This document shows, piece by piece, positions 1 through 35,465 of a DNA stretch of 39,552 nt. The notes beneath the pieces are model-generated. The model had not been told where the DNA came from, did no database searches, and saw nothing but the letters and a program-made list of their open reading frames with translations. The stretch is from a virus, in UHGV virus genome UHGV-0150234. The stretch is one strand, 5' to 3'. The translations under genes and the position numbers were made by a program. Positions within the stretch are counted from its first letter, which is position 1, and each line of letters starts with the position of its first letter.

Positions 1-46
1 GTACATAATTCACCATTATACGCGCGTATAATGGTGAATTATGTAC
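1..46. other. telRL: Telomere resolution site telRL: perfect 46-bp palindrome (may extend left of the window) containing a 22-bp telO-like core
   Basis: Positions 1-23 are the exact reverse complement of 24-46. The core CCATTATACGCGCGTATAATGG (13-34) matches the N15 telO sequence as I recall it. Protelomerase gene lies immediately downstream. Confidence 0.85.
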
Positions 47-2276: not shown

Positions 2277-3059
2277 CTATTTATTGGTGATTTCTGCTGG
2301 CTTTAGCTGCGCGGATAACTGCTCAAGTTTTTGAACTGCCAGTTCAAAATGCGCGGGCAACGCCTTTTCCAGATCAGAGTTAATATCGGTGATGGGCAAA
2401 TCACCACACGACATACTCCGCCTACCCCCACGAACAACATCACGCAACAACTCTCGTTCATACGTGCGCATGTTCCCCAATGCCGACTCAGCAGCCGTTA
2501 AAATCCGGCGCAGTTCTGCCGTAATTGCTGGTAAATCATCAACCGTTATGGGGTTCGGGGATGGATTACGACACGCCCGACGCAAAGCCAACCATACACC
2601 GCTAATCCAGGCATTTCGGTACTGAAAACTTTGTGCTATATCGTTGATCAGCCCTCGCAGATACTCTTTCTGCCTCCAGTTCAACGGCTCTGCTGCTCGC
2701 ATTGGCTCAGGTTCGACGTAAACGTACTCTCCATTCTTACGAATAGAGGGCAGGACCTCGTTCGTTACCCATTTACGAAACCGCCATGCAGTCGTGCCCT
2801 GTTTTACAGCGTCACGGCAGCGGAGGATCAGGGTGTATAGACCTGACTCTGAAATAATATTTAGCTTTTGCTCTCCGCCAGGGGTGTAACTTAAAGTTAC
2901 ACCCTTTTCATCCTCATCCAGAGACATTAGCGCCTTCCGGGAGTTAACGAGTCTTAAAGCATCACATACATCCTTAGCCACAAACCACGGCTCGCCGTTA
3001 ATCATCACTACACGAACCTGATGCTCTTCCTGAAAGGAAAAGACTGCTAACGCGCTCAT
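2277..3059 (-). CDS. Bro-N domain antirepressor-like protein, 260 aa
   Basis: N-terminal FSFQEEHQVRVV..GEPWFVAKDVCDALRL is a typical Bro-N/antirepressor signature. Last gene of a three-gene minus-strand operon. Confidence 0.75.
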   Translation of the reverse strand: MSALAVFSFQEEHQVRVVMINGEPWFVAKDVCDALRLVNSRKALMSLDEDEKGVTLSYTPGGEQKLNIISESGLYTLILRCRDAVKQGTTAWRFRKWVTNEVLPSIRKNGEYVYVEPEPMRAAEPLNWRQKEYLRGLINDIAQSFQYRNAWISGVWLALRRACRNPSPNPITVDDLPAITAELRRILTAAESALGNMRTYERELLRDVVRGGRRSMSCGDLPITDINSDLEKALPAHFELAVQKLEQLSAQLKPAEITNK

Positions 3060-3286
3060 TCAGCCTCCTTACCCAGCAATTGCGACGAGAGCGACGCGGA
3101 ATACCCCTGTGCTTCATGAGTTAACTCACACGCGATTTGAAGGAGCTTCCCGGCTTCTGATAGATAAATCGACGCCTCACAGCTGGATACTGTCCGATGG
3201 GCTGATGATACGAGCGCATAGACCTGAGCCAGACGTTCATCCAACGACTCCAGCAGGCCAACAGTGTTCATTTTTACCTGATTCAT
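3056..3286 (-). CDS. Hypothetical small protein, 76 aa (middle gene of antirepressor operon)
   Basis: ORF whose stop overlaps the start of the Bro-N gene and whose ATG overlaps the stop of the upstream small ORF (ATGA coupling). Confidence 0.5.
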   Translation of the reverse strand: MNQVKMNTVGLLESLDERLAQVYALVSSAHRTVSSCEASIYLSEAGKLLQIACELTHEAQGYSASLSSQLLGKEAE

Positions 3287-3447: not shown

Positions 3448-3502
3448 GGTATGCACTCCGTTTAATTGGTCGTGCTACCACCAGAGTTCTCACGCTCTTG
3501 AA

Positions 3503-3584
3503 TGGTGGTAGCCCAAGCGGGGGTGAGAATACCGGCAAACGAAGAAACCGGCCTGACCGAAGTCAGCCCCGCCTGAGCCACCAT
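3503..3584 (-). ncRNA. Structured RNA candidate, copy 1 (about 82 nt; possibly C4/immI-type antisense RNA in the antirepressor operon leader)
   Basis: Minus-strand reading has a CUGAC-UUCG-GUCAG tetraloop hairpin, a GCGGGG/CCCCGC stem, and a 3' end GGGCUACCACCA. A paralogous copy at 3818-3898 shows compensatory changes. Confidence 0.45.
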
Positions 3585-3817
3585 AAATCGGATATGCGCA
3601 GGTATATACACACAAAAAAACACGCTGGCGCGTGTTGTGCGCTTCGTTTATCCGGGTTCTCACGCCCGGCTGCGGGATTTACCGCAGCGGAATAACTTTA
3701 CCGTCAAAACGACGCACACGTCAATAATTTGCAAAGACATTTTACCCTGTGACCAGTCACGGGGATAGGTGTTTTTATAGTTTGCTTAAACAAATGATTA
3801 GAAGATAAACGATATTG

Positions 3818-3898
3818 TGGTGGTAGCCCAGGCAGGGTTCTCAACACCGGCCCAAACGACACCGGCCAGCCTTTCGGCTGCCCCGCCTGAACTACCAT
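3818..3898 (-). ncRNA. Structured RNA candidate, copy 2 (paralogue of 3503-3584)
   Basis: Same conserved 5' (AUGGURGYUCAGGCGGGGC) and 3' (GGGCUACCACCA) ends as copy 1; the hairpin is CAGCC-GAAA-GGCUG (GNRA tetraloop), covarying with copy 1; internal loops differ. Confidence 0.45.
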
Positions 3899-4001
3899 TA
3901 GAATAATATACAACAAAACGTAGCATTTTTACTACATTAAAATATAAATATTGTTTACACTTTACTTTACTAATGGGGCGGCTCGGGCTATCCTGATTTT
4001 G

Positions 4002-4017
4002 CTGTATAAAAACACAG
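4002..4017. promoter_or_regulatory. LexA (SOS) box CTGTATAAAAACACAG
   Basis: Exact CTGT-N8-ACAG with AT-rich spacer, 62 bp upstream of the cma ATG and in the divergent region shared with the antirepressor operon. Confidence 0.6.
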
Positions 4018-4078
4018 TATTTATGCAGCGATTAAACCTGTATGTCTGTTATTTCATTAACTTATAAGGGTTTTTGAT

Positions 4079-4894
4079 ATGGATACTATCGTTGTGACAG
4101 CTCCATCACCATCAACTAACTTACCGAGTTATGGTAATGGCGCATTTTCTCTCTCAGCACCACACGTGCCTGGTTCTGGCCCCCTTTTAGTCCAGGTGGT
4201 TTACAGCTTTTTCCAGAGCCCAAACATGTGTATTCAGGCTCTAACTCAGCTTGAGGACTACATCAAAAAACACGGTGCCAGCGATCCCCTGACATTACAA
4301 ATTATGTCAACAAATATTGCCTACTTCTGTAACGCTGACAGAAACCTTATCCTTCACCGCGGAATAAGTGTTTATGACGCCTACCACTTAGCTAAACCTG
4401 CGCCAAATAAATATGACTATCGCTCAATGAATATGAAACAAATGAGCGGTAATGTCACAACACCAATTGTGGCGCTTGCACACTATTTATGGGGTAATGG
4501 TGCAGACCGAAGCGTTAATATCGCAAATATTGGTCTCAAAATTTCTCCGATGAAAATTAATCAGATAAGAGATATTGTAAAATCTGGTGTAGTAGGCACA
4601 TTCCCTATTTCTACAAAATTCACACACGCCACTGGCGATTATAATGTTATTACCGGCGCATATCTTGGTAATATCACGCTGAAAACAGAAGGTACTTTAA
4701 CTGTCTCCGCTAATGGCTCATGGACCTATAATGGCGTTGTTCGCTCGTATAACGACAAGTATGACTTCAATGCCAGCACTCATCGTGGCGTAATCGGAGA
4801 GTCTCTTACAAGGCTCGGGGCGATGTTCTCTGGTAAAGAGTATCAGATACTACTTCCTGGCGAAATTCACATTAAAGAAAGTGGCAAGCGATAA
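4079..4894 (+). CDS. cma: Colicin M (lipid II-degrading bacteriocin), 271 aa
   Basis: Full-length, near-identical to colicin M as recalled (same 271-aa length, ...VTAPSPSTNLPSYGNGAFSLSAPHVPG..., C-terminal ...GEIHIKESGKR). AT-rich relative to flanks. Confidence 0.92.
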   Translation: MDTIVVTAPSPSTNLPSYGNGAFSLSAPHVPGSGPLLVQVVYSFFQSPNMCIQALTQLEDYIKKHGASDPLTLQIMSTNIAYFCNADRNLILHRGISVYDAYHLAKPAPNKYDYRSMNMKQMSGNVTTPIVALAHYLWGNGADRSVNIANIGLKISPMKINQIRDIVKSGVVGTFPISTKFTHATGDYNVITGAYLGNITLKTEGTLTVSANGSWTYNGVVRSYNDKYDFNASTHRGVIGESLTRLGAMFSGKEYQILLPGEIHIKESGKR

Positions 4895-4944: not shown

Positions 4945-5301
4945 TCAATCATTTGCATATTCAACATAACCTTCCTTGCAATGGTACATTCCATAATACA
5001 TTCTCTTACCTTCCGGGCCTTCGGCTTTAAATGGGACGAGAAGCGTTTTTTCATCTTTAACATCTGTTAAGCTTCTTTCAATCTTTTCCCACGTAATTTT
5101 TGGGGCTTCTGTACCGAGAAGTTGTACATCGTTATTCCAACGCGTTATTTTTTTCAAAAAGTCATTTTTTACAAATTCTCTTGCCTGTTCATCACTAACC
5201 TTATAGCACTCTGGGCCTTTATTAGATTCAGGCCAGAAAAATACAATAGCAAGAGCAATAATTGATAAAATCAAAATGATTTTTATGCTAATTACTTTCA
5301 T
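4945..5301 (-). CDS. cmi: Colicin M immunity protein (membrane-anchored, periplasmic), 118 aa
   Basis: N-terminal hydrophobic anchor (ILILSIIALAIVFF) and strong resemblance to Cmi as recalled (…KITWEKIERSLTDV.DEKTLLVPFKAEGP.GKRMYYGMYHC.EGYVEYAND); convergent with cma. Confidence 0.88.
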   Translation of the reverse strand: MKVISIKIILILSIIALAIVFFWPESNKGPECYKVSDEQAREFVKNDFLKKITRWNNDVQLLGTEAPKITWEKIERSLTDVKDEKTLLVPFKAEGPEGKRMYYGMYHCKEGYVEYAND

Positions 5302-10455: not shown

Positions 10456-11052
10456 TCATCTACCCTCAACCATGAATGATTTGATCGTTCCGACTATTTG
10501 GTGAACAAATTCAAGATCGCTTTTCCTGAAGATGGCGCGTTGTGAGTTTGTTCCATCCAGATAGTAATTTTCATCATCAAAACGGGCCAGGCGCTGGATA
10601 GTGATATTTCCTGCAGTATCACGAACCAGAACATCCTCGCCGGGGACCAGTTCCAGCGCAGAATCGACCAGGAGAAAATCGCCTGGCTGATAGTTTCCCT
10701 GCGTAAGATTGCTGATAGTTAACGCATAAACAGTATTGCGCTGGCTGATGAATGGCAGGAATCGCTCAGTATTTGGAACCTGTCCTGGCTTCCACTCTTC
10801 ATCAGGTCCACTTTCAGTTGTGCCAATAACAGGAATGCGATCAGGGTCATATTCTGTCCCATACAGCACCCAATGCACTGGCTTGCGTAAGCATTTAGCC
10901 AGGGCAATACCTATCTCCAGTGACGGCATTACGTCGCCACGTTCTAAGTTTTGGACGCCTGCAATAGAGATATCGACAGCCTCAGCAACTTCTCGCAACG
11001 TCAGCTTCATCTCTAAACGGCGTGCTTTCAGTCGTTCGCCTCGTGTTTTCAT
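10456..11052 (-). CDS. cB: CI-like prophage repressor CB (HTH plus LexA-like S24 peptidase domain), 198 aa
   Basis: N-terminal HTH (LTLREVAEAVDISIAGVQNLERG), C-terminal S24-like region; divergent from a Cro-like gene and upstream of repA, as in N15 immB. Confidence 0.85.
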   Translation of the reverse strand: MKTRGERLKARRLEMKLTLREVAEAVDISIAGVQNLERGDVMPSLEIGIALAKCLRKPVHWVLYGTEYDPDRIPVIGTTESGPDEEWKPGQVPNTERFLPFISQRNTVYALTISNLTQGNYQPGDFLLVDSALELVPGEDVLVRDTAGNITIQRLARFDDENYYLDGTNSQRAIFRKSDLEFVHQIVGTIKSFMVEGR

Positions 11053-15765: not shown

Positions 15766-15793
15766 AAATTGACCGTAAAGTTTGAGTTTTACC

Positions 15794-15809
15794 CTGTAAT
15801 TTTATACAG
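15794..15809. promoter_or_regulatory. LexA (SOS) box CTGTAATTTTATACAG overlapping a -10-like TATAAAT
   Basis: Exact CTGT-N8-ACAG with AT spacer, 39 bp upstream of the 15848 ATG. Confidence 0.6.
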
Positions 15810-15847
15810 TATAAATAACCTTTTTTAGTTAAATGGTATGAGATTTA

Positions 15848-16051
15848 ATGTCTGAAGCAGCCGTATCAACTCTTGAACAACTCGATTCAAATTTAAGAGA
15901 TATTGACGCCGTTCTGGATCTGGTTAGCGTCACCCTGGCTTCTCCAGAAGCCAGCCTACATATTGGTGAGGTTTCACGACTCATCAACATGTCGCGAGAG
16001 ATTGCCCAGCATTGTCAGAAAACTATCGCTGTTGAGCGTTCACATCATTGA
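15848..16051 (+). CDS. Small SOS-box-associated protein, 67 aa (candidate DNA-damage-inducible antirepressor or regulator)
   Basis: Monocistronic ORF directly downstream of a consensus LexA box. No family recognised. Confidence 0.5.
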   Translation: MSEAAVSTLEQLDSNLRDIDAVLDLVSVTLASPEASLHIGEVSRLINMSREIAQHCQKTIAVERSHH

Positions 16052-16093
16052 TGCACACCCCGCCCTTCTGGACGGGGTGGTAAAAGGGTCTAA

Positions 16094-16381
16094 TTAATAA
16101 ACAGCGCGAATATCGATGGTTGCGCCGCAGGCATGAGCATATTTAGCCAAAGTTTTCATACTTGCCCCTAAAGGATTGCTTTCCAGGCGGCTGATGGCTG
16201 ACGGGCGCAACCCCATTCGTTCAGCCAGAGCTGATTTCGTTAAACCTGCTCTTTCCCTCATTTCGTATAACATTTCGACCATCTCCAGCTCTTTGTCGGC
16301 CTCTTCATATCCTTTGACGGCTTCTGGAGTGTTGAGGAGTTTTTCTTTTACTTCGTTAAACGGGATGCCTTTCGCTTTCAT
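16094..16381 (-). CDS. HTH-XRE antitoxin (HigA-like), 95 aa
   Basis: HTH segment LTKSALAERMGLRPSAISRLE; start overlaps the stop of the upstream RelE/HigB-like gene. Confidence 0.75.
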   Translation of the reverse strand: MKAKGIPFNEVKEKLLNTPEAVKGYEEADKELEMVEMLYEMRERAGLTKSALAERMGLRPSAISRLESNPLGASMKTLAKYAHACGATIDIRAVY

Positions 16382-16692
16382 CAGTTCATCTCCTTCAGGC
16401 GAGTTCTGGCGATTTCGATAGCCTTCACCGGTGTTTTCTGTGTCTTTTTTACAAATGCATGCAATAGATAAATTTCGTTACCAGTCGCGTAGGCGTACAG
16501 CGTTCTTGCGATGTTTTTATCCCCTACTCGTAGTTCAAAAAGCCCTCCACCTATTACACGGCTATGAGGCATCTTCAGTTTGTTGCCTTCTTTCTCCAGT
16601 CGCTCAATTAATCTGGTCATGCGACCTCGCAAATCATCTGGTAGTTCAAGCAGTTCATCCAGTGCTGCAGGGTGGGTTATCACGTTAAACAT
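16381..16692 (-). CDS. RelE/ParE-superfamily toxin (HigB-like), 103 aa
   Basis: Size and sequence features of RelE-like mRNA interferase with toxin-first gene order; GGAGG ribosome-binding site on the minus strand. Confidence 0.7.
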   Translation of the reverse strand: MFNVITHPAALDELLELPDDLRGRMTRLIERLEKEGNKLKMPHSRVIGGGLFELRVGDKNIARTLYAYATGNEIYLLHAFVKKTQKTPVKAIEIARTRLKEMN

Positions 16693-16750
16693 ATTATAGC
16701 CTCCATACCCATAAAATACACCAAAACGAGAAAACAGCGCAAATTAAAAA

Positions 16751-16768
16751 TTTCACTAAAAAGTGAAA
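16751..16768. promoter_or_regulatory. Palindrome TTTCACT-AAAA-AGTGAAA upstream of the toxin-antitoxin operon (candidate autoregulatory operator)
   Basis: Perfect 7-bp inverted arms about 60 bp upstream of the toxin start codon. Confidence 0.4.
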
Positions 16769-16857
16769 AATAACACTGGATGTGTTCGTTTGGCAGAGTT
16801 ACAGTTCGTGTCATTGAGGGGCAATAACCTACTAACTATATGAATTTGGAGGATATT

Positions 16858-21607: not shown

Positions 21608-22057
21608 ATGCAAGAAGAAGCAAATAAAATTCTTGTTGATTTATTGAAGAAGGCCAGCGATGGAATTGATTCCGCCATTGTATTCAGTCAGGCTCAAATT
21701 CCGGATGTTGTTCATCAGTTGCTGGTATGGAATATGGTTGATAGCCTGATTAAAACATTAATAGCCATTTCAACAATTCCGCTGGTTATTTGGTTTATGA
21801 AGAAACAGTGCAAAAAAGTTGAAATTGGTAAGTTCGATAATGAAGGACGCTCATGCGATAATGGACAGCCTAAATACAAACCGACTATGATTTGGGAAAG
21901 TGACGGTAGGTTAAGTGGTTTTGTCTTACCATTAGTAGCAGTTTTTATTCTATGGTTCAGTTTTATTATTTCTGTAGTAGCCAATATGACATGGTTAAAA
22001 ATTTGGCTGGCACCTAAGTTATATCTAATCGAATACGCAGCATCACTAATTAAATAG
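21608..22057 (+). CDS. Hypothetical membrane protein with two predicted transmembrane segments, about 150 aa (second gene of cargo island)
   Basis: Hydrophobic segments LIKTLIAISTIPLVIWFM and FVLPLVAVFILWFSFIISVV; AT-rich; followed by a hairpin at 22067-22092. Confidence 0.55.
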   Translation: MQEEANKILVDLLKKASDGIDSAIVFSQAQIPDVVHQLLVWNMVDSLIKTLIAISTIPLVIWFMKKQCKKVEIGKFDNEGRSCDNGQPKYKPTMIWESDGRLSGFVLPLVAVFILWFSFIISVVANMTWLKIWLAPKLYLIEYAASLIK

Positions 22058-32911: not shown

Positions 32912-35465
32912 ACCGGTAGGCGATCTGGTCGTTGATTTGAGTCTGGATGCGGCCAGATTTGACGAGCAGATGGCCAGAGTCAGGCGTCATTTTTCCGGTA
33001 CGGAAAGTGATGCGAAAAAAACAGCGGCAGTCGTTGAACAGTCGCTGAGCCGACAGGCGCTGGCTGCACAGAAAGCGGGGATTTCCGTCGGGCAGTATAA
33101 AGCCGCCATGCGTATGCTGCCTGCACAGTTCACCGACGTGGCCACGCAGCTTGCAGGCGGGCAAAGTCCGTGGCTGATCCTGCTGCAACAGGGTGGTCAG
33201 GTTAAGGACTCCTTCGGCGGGATGATCCCCATGTTCAGGGGGCTTGCCGGTGCGATCACCCTGCCGATGGTGGGGGCCACCTCGCTGGCGGTGGCGACCG
33301 GTGCGCTGGCGTATGCCTGGTATCAGGGCAACTCAACCCTGTCCGATTTCAACAAAACGCTGGTCCTTTCCGGCAATCAGGCGGGACTGACGGCAGATCG
33401 CATGCTGGTCCTGTCCAGAGCCGGGCAGGCGGCAGGGCTGACGTTTAACCAGACCAGCGAGTCACTCAGCGCACTGGTTAAGGCGGGGGTAAGCGGTGAG
33501 GCTCAGATTGCGTCCATCAGCCAGAGTGTGGCGCGTTTCTCCTCTGCATCCGGCGTGGAGGTGGACAAGGTCGCTGAAGCCTTCGGGAAGCTGACCACAG
33601 ACCCGACGTCGGGGCTGACGGCGATGGCACGCCAGTTCCATAACGTGACGGCGGAGCAGATTGCGTATGTTGCTCAGTTGCAGCGTTCCGGCGATGAAGC
33701 CGGGGCATTGCAGGCGGCGAACGAGGCCGCAACGAAAGGGTTTGATGACCAGACCCGCCGCCTGAAAGAGAACATGGGCACGCTGGAGACCTGGGCAGAC
33801 AGGACAGCACGGGCATTCAAATCCATGTGGGATGCGGTGCTGGATATTGGTCGTCCTGATACCGCTCAGGAGATGCTGATTAAGGCAGAGGCTGCGTTTA
33901 AGAAAGCAGACGACATCTGGAATCTGCGCAAGGATGATTATTTTGTTAACGATGAAGCGCGGGCGCGTTACTGGGATGATCGTGAAAAGGCCCGTCTTGC
34001 GCTTGAAGCCGCCCGAAAGAAGGCTGAGCAGCAGAGTCAACAGGACAAAAATGCGCAGCAGCAGAGCGATACCGAAGCGTCACGGCTGAAATATACCGAA
34101 GAGGCGCAGAAGGCTTACGAACGCCTGCAAACGCCGCTGGAGAAATATACCGCCCGTCAGGAAGAACTGAATAAGGCACTGAAAGACGGGAAAATCCTGC
34201 AGGCAGATTACAACACGCTGATGGCGGCAGCGAAAAAGGATTATGAAGCTACGCTGAAAAAGCCGAAGCAGTCCGGCGTGAAGGTGTCTGCGGGCGATCG
34301 TCAGGAAGACAGTGCTCATGCTGCCCTGCTGACGCTTCAGGCAGAACTCCGGACGCTGGAGAAGCATGCCGGAGCGAATGAGAAAATCAGCCAGCAGCGC
34401 CGGGATTTGTGGAAGGCGGAGAATCAGTTCGCGGTACTGGAGGAGGCGGCGCAACGTCGCCAGCTGTCTGCACAGGAGAAATCCCTGCTGGCGCATAAAG
34501 ACGAGACGCTGGAGTACAAGCGCCAGCTGGCTGCACTTGGCGATAAGGTCACGTATCAGGAGCACCTGAATGCGCTGGCGCAGCAGGCGGATAAATTCGC
34601 ACAGCAGCAACGGGCAAAACGGGCCGCCATTGATGCGAAAAGCCGGGGGCTGACTGACCGGCAGGCAGCGCGGGAAGCCACGGAACAGCGTCTGAAGGAA
34701 CAGTATGGCGATAATCCGCTGGCGCTGAATAACGTCATGTCAGAGCAGAAAAAGACCTGGGCGGCTGAAGACCAGCTTCGCGGGAGCTGGATGGCAGGCC
34801 TGAAGTCCGGCTGGAGTGAGTGGGAAGAGAGCGCCACGGACAGTATGTCGCAGGTTAAAAGTGCTGCCACGCAGACCTTTGATGGTATTGCACAGAATAT
34901 GGCGGCGATGCTGACCGGCAGTGAACAGAACTGGCGCAGCTTCACCCGTTCCGTGCTGTCCATGATGACAGAAATTCTGCTTAAGCAGGCAATGGTGGGG
35001 ATTGTCGGGAGTATCGGCAGCGCCATTGGCGGTGCTGCCAGTGGTGGAGCATCAGCGTCAGGTGGTACAGCCATTCAGGCCGCTGCGGCGAAATTCCATT
35101 TTGCGACCGGGGGATTTACGGGAACCGGCGGCAAATATGAGCCAGCGGGGATTGTTCACCGTGGTGAGTTTGTCTTCACGAAGGAGGCAACCAGCCGGAT
35201 TGGCGTGGGGAATCTCTACCGGCTGATGCGCGGCTATGCCACCGGCGGTTATGTCGGTACACCGGGCAGCATGGCAGACAGCCGGTCGCAGGCGTCCGGG
35301 ACGTTTGAGCAGAATAACCATGTGGTGATTAACAACGACGGCACGAACGGTCAGATAGGGCCACAGGCACTGAAGGCTGTTTATGACGTAGCCCGTAAGG
35401 CGGCAATGGATGTTGTGACCGGGCAGATGCGCGATGGTGGTCTGTTCTCCGGAGGTGGACGATGA
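32904..35465 (+). CDS. H: Tail tape measure protein H, 853 aa
   Basis: Lambda gpH-like, same length. Confidence 0.95.
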   Translation: MAEPVGDLVVDLSLDAARFDEQMARVRRHFSGTESDAKKTAAVVEQSLSRQALAAQKAGISVGQYKAAMRMLPAQFTDVATQLAGGQSPWLILLQQGGQVKDSFGGMIPMFRGLAGAITLPMVGATSLAVATGALAYAWYQGNSTLSDFNKTLVLSGNQAGLTADRMLVLSRAGQAAGLTFNQTSESLSALVKAGVSGEAQIASISQSVARFSSASGVEVDKVAEAFGKLTTDPTSGLTAMARQFHNVTAEQIAYVAQLQRSGDEAGALQAANEAATKGFDDQTRRLKENMGTLETWADRTARAFKSMWDAVLDIGRPDTAQEMLIKAEAAFKKADDIWNLRKDDYFVNDEARARYWDDREKARLALEAARKKAEQQSQQDKNAQQQSDTEASRLKYTEEAQKAYERLQTPLEKYTARQEELNKALKDGKILQADYNTLMAAAKKDYEATLKKPKQSGVKVSAGDRQEDSAHAALLTLQAELRTLEKHAGANEKISQQRRDLWKAENQFAVLEEAAQRRQLSAQEKSLLAHKDETLEYKRQLAALGDKVTYQEHLNALAQQADKFAQQQRAKRAAIDAKSRGLTDRQAAREATEQRLKEQYGDNPLALNNVMSEQKKTWAAEDQLRGSWMAGLKSGWSEWEESATDSMSQVKSAATQTFDGIAQNMAAMLTGSEQNWRSFTRSVLSMMTEILLKQAMVGIVGSIGSAIGGAASGGASASGGTAIQAAAAKFHFATGGFTGTGGKYEPAGIVHRGEFVFTKEATSRIGVGNLYRLMRGYATGGYVGTPGSMADSRSQASGTFEQNNHVVINNDGTNGQIGPQALKAVYDVARKAAMDVVTGQMRDGGLFSGGGR

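What the first reader, a model, noticed from the sequence alone, without database searches (positions are those of the whole stretch)
15794..16051. Second consensus LexA box driving a monocistronic 67-aa gene
CTGTAATTTTATACAG overlaps a -10-like TATAAAT 39 bp upstream of a 67-aa ORF with no recognisable family. Small LexA-controlled phage proteins often act as antirepressors (coliphage 186 Tum and Gifsy-type antirepressors, recalled). With the Bro-N operon there may be two SOS-responsive induction inputs, or this gene may have a different damage-induced role.
Basis: partly seen in the sequence, partly recalled or inferred. Interest (0 to 1): 0.5.

Follow-up and report, generated by a model that had tools for sequence, protein, structure and literature searches.

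The report
SOS-controlled AntC antirepressor of N15-like prophage
The LexA box and the 67-codon gene are real, but they are the local copy of an already characterised switch: the DNA-damage-controlled antirepressor AntC, which phage N15 and its relatives use to inactivate their non-cleavable repressor CB and leave lysogeny.

Summary
Observation confirmed. CTGTAATTTTATACAG (15794-15809) is a high-scoring LexA box, 38 nt upstream of a 67-aa gene (15848-16051) that has its own promoter and a hairpin after the stop.

The window is an N15-like linear phage-plasmid (Ravinvirus). The gene is the syntenic orthologue (55.6% identity) of an unannotated N15 ORF between genes 47 and 48. That ORF carries one of only two strong LexA boxes in N15, so I infer it is N15 antC. 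AntC is the published LexA-repressed antirepressor that acts against CB (Mardanov and Ravin 2007).

- The box, the geometry TTGnnn-6 nt-box (-10 = TACAGT inside the box) and the ORF are kept in 10 of 10 diverged loci. Synonymous sites are near saturation, and dN/dS is 0.1-0.4.
- The window's CB is 77.8% identical to N15 CB and lacks the catalytic Lys and Ser needed for self-cleavage.
- The protein is a predicted helical hairpin. It belongs to PHROG 6301/10889 ("anti-repressor") and is a distant paralogue of AntA, the antirepressor of the Bro-N (immA) operon.

The "two SOS inputs" idea fails. immA is C4-RNA-controlled and has no LexA box in relatives. The window's other strong box precedes an inserted colicin M gene.

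Already known; low interest.

The parts
15782..15787 (+). Probable -35 hexamer, TTGAGT
   Evidence: A TTGnnn hexamer lies exactly 6 nt upstream of the LexA box in all 10 homologous loci. The function is inferred; the transcription start has not been mapped here.
15794..15809 (.). LexA (SOS) box CTGTAATTTTATACAG (20-mer 15792-15811)
   Evidence: Perfect CTGT-N8-ACAG. Weight-matrix score 20.4 bits against a median of 21.0 for real E. coli sites. Conserved in 10 of 10 loci, with one half-site change (ATGT) in the two phiKO2-type loci.
15805..15810 (+). Probable -10 hexamer TACAGT, formed by the right half of the box plus the next T
   Evidence: It lies 17 nt after the conserved TTGnnn and is invariant in all 10 loci. 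LexA bound here would occlude RNA polymerase (inferred).
15810..15816 (+).
   Evidence: It is present, but this stretch varies among relatives and has no conserved -35 at 16-18 nt. It is the less likely -10.
15848..16051 (+). antC orthologue: a 67-aa helical-hairpin antirepressor
   Evidence: 55.6% identical to the N15 ORF at 39619-39807, and syntenic with it. dN/dS is 0.1-0.4. Hits phrog_6301 at 1.8e-35 and phrog_10889 'anti-repressor' at 6e-8. AlphaFold2 predicts helices 3-29 and 33-66 with pLDDT 91.4.
16052..16082 (.). GC-rich hairpin between the antC stop codon and the end of the convergent higA-like gene
   Evidence: Fold energy -19.2 kcal/mol, shuffle z-score -1.88. It has no U-tract on the + strand. 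Relatives also carry GC-rich hairpin-forming sequence at the same place.
10456..11052 (-). cB, the prophage repressor and presumed target of AntC
   Evidence: 77.8% identical to N15 CB. It has an HTH_3 domain plus a sub-threshold Peptidase_S24-like C-terminal region. LexA K156 aligns with Gln and S119 with Thr. The literature reports that N15 and phiKO2 CB lack the cleavage site and the Ser/Lys pair, and that the N15 repressor is not proteolysed.
3056..3286 (-). antA orthologue (N15 gp31-like, 76 aa), a distant paralogue of the 67-aa protein, in the C4-RNA-controlled immA operon
   Evidence: 61.8% identical to N15 gp31. The phiKO2 homologue is annotated 'similar to antirepressor N15 AntA'. It hits the same PHROGs as the 67-aa protein. 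hhalign of the AntC family against the AntA family gives probability 92.5%, E = 4.9e-7.

Best explanation
The 67-aa gene is the orthologue of N15 antC, a LexA-repressed antirepressor that couples induction of this N15-like linear plasmid prophage to the host SOS response.

Proposed mechanism:
1. In a lysogen, host LexA sits on the box at 15794-15809. The box fills the spacer and the -10 of the antC promoter (TTGAGT, 17 nt, TACAGT), so the gene is silent.
2. DNA damage activates RecA, and LexA cleaves itself.
3. antC is then transcribed as a short message of its own.
4. The helical-hairpin protein binds the prophage repressor CB (10456-11052). CB cannot cleave itself because it lacks the catalytic Lys and Ser.
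5. CB releases its operators, and cro, Q and the late genes are expressed.

What is shown here: the box and its quality; conservation of the promoter, box and ORF; orthology and synteny with the N15 locus; purifying selection; the degenerate protease domain of CB; and the paralogy with AntA.

What is taken from the literature: LexA control of antC and AntC acting against CB in N15.

What is inferred: that the N15 ORF at 39619-39807 is the published antC, that LexA binds this particular box, and that this AntC binds this CB.
For: - The window is a Ravinvirus-type phage-plasmid. It has a protelomerase, a repA-like gene, cB, cro and Q, and the queried segment is about 99% identical to phages PhiR46_1 and YDC107_1.
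- The 67-aa protein matches an unannotated N15 ORF between genes 47 and 48 (55.6% identity, E = 9e-16) and phiKO2 Gp47. The neighbours are the same: gp46/gp47 homologues upstream and the convergent gp48/gp49 (HigA/HigB-like) pair downstream.
- N15 has only two high-scoring LexA boxes. One precedes the umuD-like gene 26 and the other precedes this ORF.
- Held papers cite Mardanov and Ravin 2007 for the N15 system. [quoted passage not shown] - The box and the TTGnnn-6 nt-box spacing are kept in 10 of 10 loci, although dS is 0.9-1.9 and protein identity falls to about 52% or lower.
- dN/dS is 0.1-0.4.
- The protein hits phrog_10889 'anti-repressor' and phrog_6301 and is homologous to AntA.
- CB is non-cleavable.
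Against: - The primary N15 paper is not in the held library. The equation 'N15 ORF 39619-39807 = antC' therefore rests on inference and on my recollection.
- No database entry names any member of this family AntC.
- AntC identity to N15 is only 55.6%, against 77.8% for CB, so the partner specificity is untested.
- There is no experimental evidence for LexA binding or CB binding in this element.
- The hairpin after the gene has no U-tract, so termination on the + strand is not certain.
Confidence: 0.88

Rival explanations
1. The gene is truly SOS-induced, but its product does something other than antirepression. It might modulate RecA or LexA (as DinI or GIL01 gp7 do), inhibit cell division, or act on the neighbouring HigBA-like toxin-antitoxin pair.
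For: The protein has no Pfam or NCBIfam family and no significant structural neighbour. It lies next to a Gp49/HTH toxin-antitoxin-like pair. The N15 box is inferred, not read, to be the antC box.
Against: It hits an 'anti-repressor' PHROG and is homologous to the N15/phiKO2 antirepressor AntA. In N15 the only other strong LexA box precedes a umuD homologue, which leaves this ORF as the only candidate for the published LexA-controlled antC. A distant homologue (L015) keeps the box and the ORF but has no gene called between it and the downstream methylase, so the HigBA-like pair is absent there.
Confidence: 0.07
2. The LexA box mainly regulates something else, and the 67-aa ORF is incidental. 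For example, a damage-induced transcript might run antisense into the convergent higBA-like genes.
For: The hairpin after the ORF has no U-tract on the + strand. A transcript could therefore read into the antisense strand of 16094-16692.
Against: The ORF is under purifying selection, with an invariant SPEASLH core and a confident fold. The box-to-ATG distance is kept at 36-42 nt. The module persists without higBA in L015.
Confidence: 0.03
3. The box is a chance palindrome in AT-rich intergenic DNA and has no LexA function.
For: One shuffle in 100 gave three CTGT-N8-ACAG matches. The third match in the window is probably chance.
Against: The score of 20.4 bits is close to the median of real sites and well above the next-best site in the window (10.8 bits) and above the best of 30 shuffles (18.6). 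The box is conserved in 10 of 10 loci where synonymous sites are near saturation.
Confidence: 0.01

Closest known systems
AntC of coliphage N15 (Mardanov and Ravin 2007, J Bacteriol 189:6333; cited in PMC4488713, PMC3121763, PMC11652158)
   Same: Both sit in the same phage group (Ravinvirus) and at the same genomic position, between the gp47 and gp48 homologues. The LexA box and promoter layout match, as do the small size of the protein and the CB-type non-cleavable repressor partner.
   Different: The proteins are only 55.6% identical and their C-terminal tails differ. The window's CB differs from N15 CB at 22% of positions, so cross-specificity is unknown. None of the database entries returned for this family is named AntC.
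AntA (N15 gp31 / phiKO2 gp28), the antirepressor of the immA anti-immunity operon
   Same: Both belong to the same PHROGs, 6301 and 10889. Profile-profile comparison gives 92.5% probability with 30% identity over 53 columns, including the shared [SC]-x-EAS-[LI] turn motif. Both are small proteins of about 70 aa, and both are present in this window.
   Different: AntA is the middle gene of the icd-antA-antB(Bro-N) operon. That operon is preceded by C4-type antisense RNA elements and has no LexA box in relatives. AntC stands alone and is LexA-controlled. BLASTP finds no pairwise similarity.
Tum of coliphage 186 and the GfoA/GftA antirepressors of the Gifsy prophages
   Same: The logic is the same: a LexA-repressed gene outside the immunity region encodes a small protein that inactivates a non-cleavable repressor by binding it (PMC3121763).
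   Different: I detected no relationship, although none of these proteins was compared directly. Tum is 146 aa and its second half shows significant identity to DinI, whereas this protein is a 67-aa hairpin with no Pfam hit. The resemblance is analogy, not family membership.
P22 Ant / Bro-N type antirepressors
   Same: They share the functional label of antirepressor. A Bro-N protein (AntB-like, 2277-3059) is present elsewhere in the window.
   Different: The 67-aa protein has no Bro-N or Ant domain and is far smaller.

Membership tests
N15 AntC-type LexA-controlled antirepressor module | Protein homologous to the N15 antC product and at the syntenic position | tested here: met
   tblastn gives 55.6% identity over 94% of the protein, E = 9e-16, to N15 39619-39807. 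The flanking genes are the same: gp46/gp47 homologues upstream and gp48/gp49 homologues convergent downstream.
N15 AntC-type LexA-controlled antirepressor module | The N15 ORF used for comparison is the published antC | tested here: inconclusive
   The primary paper is not held and no database entry carries the name. I infer the identity because N15 has only two strong LexA boxes, one before umuD-like gene 26 and one before this ORF.
N15 AntC-type LexA-controlled antirepressor module | LexA operator overlapping the core promoter of the gene | tested here: met
   The box is a perfect CTGT-N8-ACAG scoring 20.4 bits. It covers the spacer and the -10 of the conserved TTGnnn-17-TACAGT promoter in 10 of 10 loci. 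This is sequence evidence only.
N15 AntC-type LexA-controlled antirepressor module | Partner repressor is CB-type and cannot cleave itself | tested here: met
   The window's CB is 77.8% identical to N15 CB. Its S24-like domain falls below the Pfam cut-off. LexA K156 aligns with Gln and S119 with Thr. The literature agrees.
N15 AntC-type LexA-controlled antirepressor module | LexA binds the box, and expression requires RecA-dependent LexA cleavage | not testable with these tools
   This needs EMSA or footprinting, plus lexA(Ind-) and recA reporter assays.
N15 AntC-type LexA-controlled antirepressor module | The protein binds CB and relieves its repression | not testable with these tools
   This needs a pull-down or two-hybrid assay and a CB-repressed promoter reporter. 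No complex prediction was available here.
AntA/AntC small-antirepressor family (PHROG 6301/10889) | Significant profile match to the family | tested here: met
   phrog_6301 at 1.8e-35 over the full length and phrog_10889 'anti-repressor' at 6e-8. hhalign against the AntA alignment gives 92.5% probability, E = 4.9e-7.
186 Tum / DinI-fusion antirepressors | Tum-like sequence with a DinI-like C-terminal half, about 146 aa | tested here: not met
   The protein is 67 aa and has no DinI or other Pfam hit. Tum's size and DinI similarity are taken from PMC3121763. Only the regulatory logic is shared.
Gifsy GfoA/GftA antirepressors | Sequence homology to GfoA or GftA | not tested
   I had no GfoA or GftA sequences to compare. 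None appeared among the homologues found.
Bro-N / P22 Ant antirepressors | Bro-N or Ant domain | tested here: not met
   The 67-aa protein has no Bro-N hit. The window's Bro-N protein is a different gene, at 2277-3059.

The most novel reading that the evidence does not exclude
The window's two strong LexA boxes may make this phage-plasmid a self-contained device for producing and releasing colicin M. LexA cleavage would switch on the inserted colicin M gene (box at 4002-4017). It would also switch on AntC (box at 15794-15809). AntC would then inactivate CB and trigger the phage's own holin and endolysin.

That lysis would supply the release function that colicin M lacks, since no lysis gene lies next to colM in E. 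coli (PMC5821083). There is precedent for colicin Ib, which is released through prophage lysis (PMC7374059).

A lesser novelty is that AntC and AntA are paralogues wired to different signals, LexA and C4 RNA. I could not find this stated in the held literature.
Probability: 0.3. Interest if true: 0.55.

Novelty: already known. Interest (0 to 1): 0.15.

Why it matters
For the finding itself, the value is in annotation. None of the database entries returned for this small protein, including phiKO2 Gp47 and the unannotated N15 ORF, carries a functional name; they read "hypothetical protein" or "Gp47". The protein can now be labelled as the AntC antirepressor, with a defined LexA operator and promoter. 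That explains how these widespread Escherichia, Klebsiella and Enterobacter phage-plasmids sense DNA damage even though their repressor cannot be cleaved.

The paralogy with AntA suggests that one protein fold has been duplicated and wired to two different signals. The neighbouring observation is the more interesting lead: an SOS-boxed colicin M cargo gene on the same element.

Tried and rejected
- **Primary paper.** I tried to read Mardanov and Ravin 2007 by PMC id and by PubMed id. It is not held. Further literature searches for the position of antC, or for a stated AntA/AntC relationship, found nothing.
- **Domain libraries.** Pfam and NCBIfam gave only sub-threshold noise for the 67-aa protein.
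- **Word-indexed protein search.** It returned only close relatives, all unnamed.
- **Exhaustive profile search.** Against 1.8 billion representatives it returned five short proteins that belong to the family and four long multi-stretch proteins that look spurious. The family is therefore narrow.
- **Exact-sequence look-ups.** The N15 and phiKO2 proteins carry no functional name in any source.
- **Structure.** Foldseek against the PDB gave only generic helical hairpins, all with E > 1. A PDB sequence-profile search gave nothing meaningful.
- **Pairwise AntC against AntA.** BLASTP found nothing. Only the profile methods show the relationship.
- **Promoter scan.** The consensus scan found no promoter at the box, because TTGAGT/TACAGT scores 8 of 12 and the tool's threshold is 9.
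- **Rfam around the gene.** Only a sub-threshold RyhB-like hit appeared, at 16744-16815. I dismissed it.
- **Box at 4002 controlling the Bro-N/immA operon.** I considered this and rejected it as the main reading. The box lies about 100 nt upstream of the first C4 RNA element (3902). It lies outside the homology with the immA regions of relatives, none of which has a box. A secondary effect on immA cannot be excluded.

Full report
**1. The observation**

CTGTAATTTTATACAG lies at 15794-15809. An ATG-initiated ORF of 67 codons runs from 15848 to the TGA at 16049-16051.

The pattern CTGT-N8-ACAG occurs three times in the window, against 0.46 expected from shuffles. I built a 20-nt weight matrix from E. 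coli SOS boxes that I recalled from memory, so it is approximate. With it, the site 15792-15811 scores 20.4 bits, and the median of the real sites is 21.0. Only the box at 4000-4019 scores higher (23.2). The next best site in the window scores 10.8, and the best score in 30 shuffles was 18.6. The third pattern match, at 34956, is not among the 12 best-scoring sites and is most likely chance.

**2. The element**

The window is an N15-like linear phage-plasmid.
- It opens with a tel-type palindrome.
- It encodes a protelomerase, a large rep gene, a CB-type repressor, Cro and Q.
- The region around the finding is about 99% identical to Escherichia phages PhiR46_1 and YDC107_1; YDC107_1 is classified as Ravinvirus.

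**3. The gene**

By tblastn, the 67-aa protein is 55.6% identical (E = 9e-16) to an unannotated ORF of N15 at 39619-39807, between genes 47 and 48. It is 55-57% identical to phiKO2 Gp47 and to ORFs of many Klebsiella and Enterobacter phage-plasmids. There were 13 phage records and 213 plasmid records with a match.

The neighbourhood is the same everywhere. Homologues of gp46 and gp47 lie upstream, and a convergent Gp49/HTH (HigB/HigA-like) pair lies downstream.

The N15 locus reads CTGTGTTTATATACAG-TATTAAATAACC...AATGGTAT...ATG, which is the layout seen in the window.

N15 has only two strong LexA boxes. One precedes the umuD-like gene 26, and the other precedes this ORF.

Held papers cite Mardanov and Ravin 2007 for the N15 system. 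[quoted passage not shown] PMC3121763 lists AntC of N15 among LexA-controlled antirepressors. [quoted passage not shown]

I could not read the primary paper. That the N15 ORF is antC is therefore an inference. It agrees with my recollection of that paper, and I am confident of it but have not verified it.

**4. Comparative evidence**

I compared ten diverged loci: the window, N15, phiKO2, KpLi5, Enterobacter MStein-2023a, an E. coli plasmid, an E. cloacae plasmid, a K. grimontii plasmid, a K. pneumoniae plasmid, and a distant Logan contig (L015).
- All ten keep a [C/A]TGT-N8-ACAG box 36-42 nt before the ATG.
- All ten keep a TTGnnn hexamer exactly 6 nt upstream of the box.
- With a 17-nt spacer, this places the -10 at TACAGT, inside the box (15805-15810 in the window). 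TACAGT is invariant in all ten.
- Either way, bound LexA would cover the core promoter (inferred).

The coding region is under purifying selection. dN/dS is 0.1-0.4, and dS is 0.9-1.9, which is close to saturation. The near-invariance of the 16-nt box is therefore informative.

In L015 the module stands alone. It has the box, the ORF and a strong terminator, and no gene is called between it and the downstream methylase, so the toxin-antitoxin neighbours are absent. This supports a self-contained, monocistronic unit.

In the window, a hairpin at 16052-16082 (-19.2 kcal/mol; shuffle z-score -1.88) follows the stop codon but has no U-tract.

**5. The protein**

AlphaFold2, run with a shallow alignment of five sequences, predicts a two-helix hairpin: residues 3-29 and 33-66, mean pLDDT 91.4. 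The turn falls at the invariant SPEASLH motif. Foldseek against the PDB and a PDB sequence-profile search gave nothing significant.

Pfam and NCBIfam have no family for it. PHROGs does: phrog_6301 at 1.8e-35 and phrog_10889 'anti-repressor' at 6e-8.

The 76-aa gene at 3056-3286 (minus strand) hits the same two PHROGs, at 2.3e-36 and 2.8e-18. It is the homologue of N15 gp31. The phiKO2 homologue is annotated 'similar to antirepressor encoded by N15 AntA'.

Profile-profile comparison of the AntC and AntA alignments gives 92.5% probability, E = 4.9e-7, with 30% identity over 53 columns. BLASTP finds no pairwise similarity. AntC and AntA are therefore distant paralogues. I found no statement of this in the held literature, but the unread primary paper may contain it.

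The family is narrow. An exhaustive profile search of 1.8 billion representative proteins returned five short proteins that belong to the family, plus four long multi-stretch proteins that look spurious.

**6. The target**

The window's CB (10456-11052, minus strand) is 77.8% identical to N15 CB. It has an HTH_3 domain and a Peptidase_S24-like C-terminal region that scores below the Pfam cut-off (21.3 against 23.3 bits).

I aligned the window and N15 CB proteins to E. coli LexA, using a LexA sequence recalled from memory. Only the N15 alignment spans the catalytic motifs. There, the LexA TVKRL motif (K156) aligns with TIQRL, and S119 aligns with Ile. The window CB carries the same TIQRL motif and has Thr at the position that corresponds to S119.

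This agrees with the literature. Hammerl et al. 2016 report that N15 and phiKO2 CB lack the RecA cleavage site and the essential Ser and Lys. Silpe et al. 2023 show that the N15 repressor is not proteolysed on SOS induction. A repressor of this kind needs an antirepressor.

**7. Mechanism**

In a lysogen, LexA occupies the box and blocks the antC promoter. DNA damage activates RecA and LexA cleaves itself. AntC is then made, and it binds and inactivates CB. Derepression of cro and Q and lytic growth follow.

- Shown here: the sequence features, their conservation, the orthology, and the state of CB.
- Taken from the literature on N15: LexA control of antC and AntC acting on CB.
- Inferred for this element: LexA binding to this box and AntC binding to this CB.

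**8. The 'two SOS inputs' idea**

The Bro-N gene (2277-3059, minus strand) is the last gene of the immA operon, after an Icd-like gene and antA.

Upstream of these genes on the same strand, Rfam finds:
- two C4 antisense RNA elements, at 3501-3588 and 3816-3902;
- an a1/b1 target element;
- an isrK-like element.

This fits the published control of the N15 antirepressor gene by a small processed RNA (Ravin et al. 1999, cited).

No CTGT-N8-ACAG box occurs in the immA regions of N15, phiKO2, YDC107_1 or PhiR46_1.

The window's other strong box (4002-4017) lies 61 nt upstream of a gene that is colicin M, not a Bro-N gene (Pfam Colicin_M, 8e-145). A cmi-like immunity gene converges on it.
- The closest phages lack this cassette.
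- It is only about 86% identical to the cma-cmi genes of 440 plasmid records, 397 of them predicted conjugative. That homology starts at window position 4045, downstream of the box.
- No match among 5,426 complete E. coli genomes covers more than about a third of the immA-cma junction region that I queried.

There are thus two antirepressor inputs, AntA and AntC, but only AntC is SOS-wired. The second LexA box belongs to a cargo gene.

**9. Verdict**

The feature is the orthologue of a system characterised in N15 in 2007, so it is already known and interest in the finding itself is low.

Two by-products are worth recording: the AntA/AntC paralogy, and the SOS-boxed colicin M cassette on a phage-plasmid. 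In the second case, SOS-triggered phage lysis could provide the release function that colicin M lacks. PMC5821083 notes that no lysis gene lies near colM, and PMC7374059 gives the precedent of prophage-dependent colicin Ib release.

Noticed in passing
window 4002-4017 (box), 4079-4894 (+), 4945-5301 (-): The best LexA box in the window (CTGTATAAAAACACAG, 23.2 bits) lies 61 nt upstream of a colicin M gene (Pfam Colicin_M, 8e-145), and a cmi-like immunity gene converges on it. The closest phages (PhiR46_1, YDC107_1) lack the cassette. It is only about 86% identical to cma-cmi on mostly conjugative plasmids, with homology starting downstream of the box. No match among 5,426 complete E. coli genomes covers more than about a third of the immA-cma junction region. 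Colicin M has no lysis gene, so SOS-triggered lysis by this phage-plasmid through AntC could be its release route.
   Followed up: partly
window 3056-3286 (-): The 76-aa AntA orthologue (N15 gp31-like) in the immA operon is a distant paralogue of the 67-aa AntC-like protein. Both hit PHROG 6301 and 10889, and hhalign gives 92.5% probability, E = 4.9e-7. One fold is wired to two different controls.
   Followed up: yes
window 3501-3588, 3615-3688, 3649-3701, 3816-3902 (all -): Rfam finds two full-length C4 antisense RNA elements (82 and 69 bits), an isrK-like element (64 bits) and a c4-a1b1 target element (42.5 bits, just under its threshold) upstream of icd-antA-antB. This is a P1/N15-type RNA-controlled anti-immunity region, and it carries a duplicated C4.
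   Followed up: no
window 1-46: The window starts with an intact 46-nt perfect palindrome, gtacataattcaccattatacgcgcgtataatggtgaattatgtac. It contains the TATACGCGCGTATA core typical of the N15 telRL/telO site and lies about 170 nt upstream of the protelomerase gene (215-2104).
   Followed up: no
window 16094-16381 (-), 16381-16692 (-): A Gp49-family (HigB/RelE-like) gene and an HTH_3 (HigA-like) gene, homologues of N15 gp49 and gp48, converge on antC. A distant relative (L015) keeps the antC module but has no such pair called.
   Followed up: partly
window 10456-11052 (-): CB keeps a recognisable but degenerate S24 peptidase-like C-terminal domain (21.3 bits against a 23.3-bit cut-off). Gln replaces the catalytic Lys, and Thr lies at the position corresponding to the catalytic Ser (Ile in N15).
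   Followed up: yes
window 15833-15841: A conserved AATGGTA motif upstream of antC forms a two-codon in-frame mini-ORF here (ATG GTA TGA). In N15 and in an E. coli plasmid relative the same ATG is open and gives a five-residue N-terminal extension (the 75-aa and 72-aa database variants), so the start codon may differ between lineages.
   Followed up: partly
N15 (L011) 21660-21675: N15's strongest LexA box (CTGTATAAAAAAACAG, 24.9 bits) precedes its umuD-like gene 26. In this window the top-scoring box instead serves colicin M, so different SOS-controlled cargo genes carry the strongest box in related phage-plasmids.
   Followed up: no
protein P0009 (ENA contig, 783 nt): One database homologue of the 67-aa protein matches it at both ends but has an unrelated middle segment. 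The pattern looks like a double frameshift or an assembly error.
   Followed up: no
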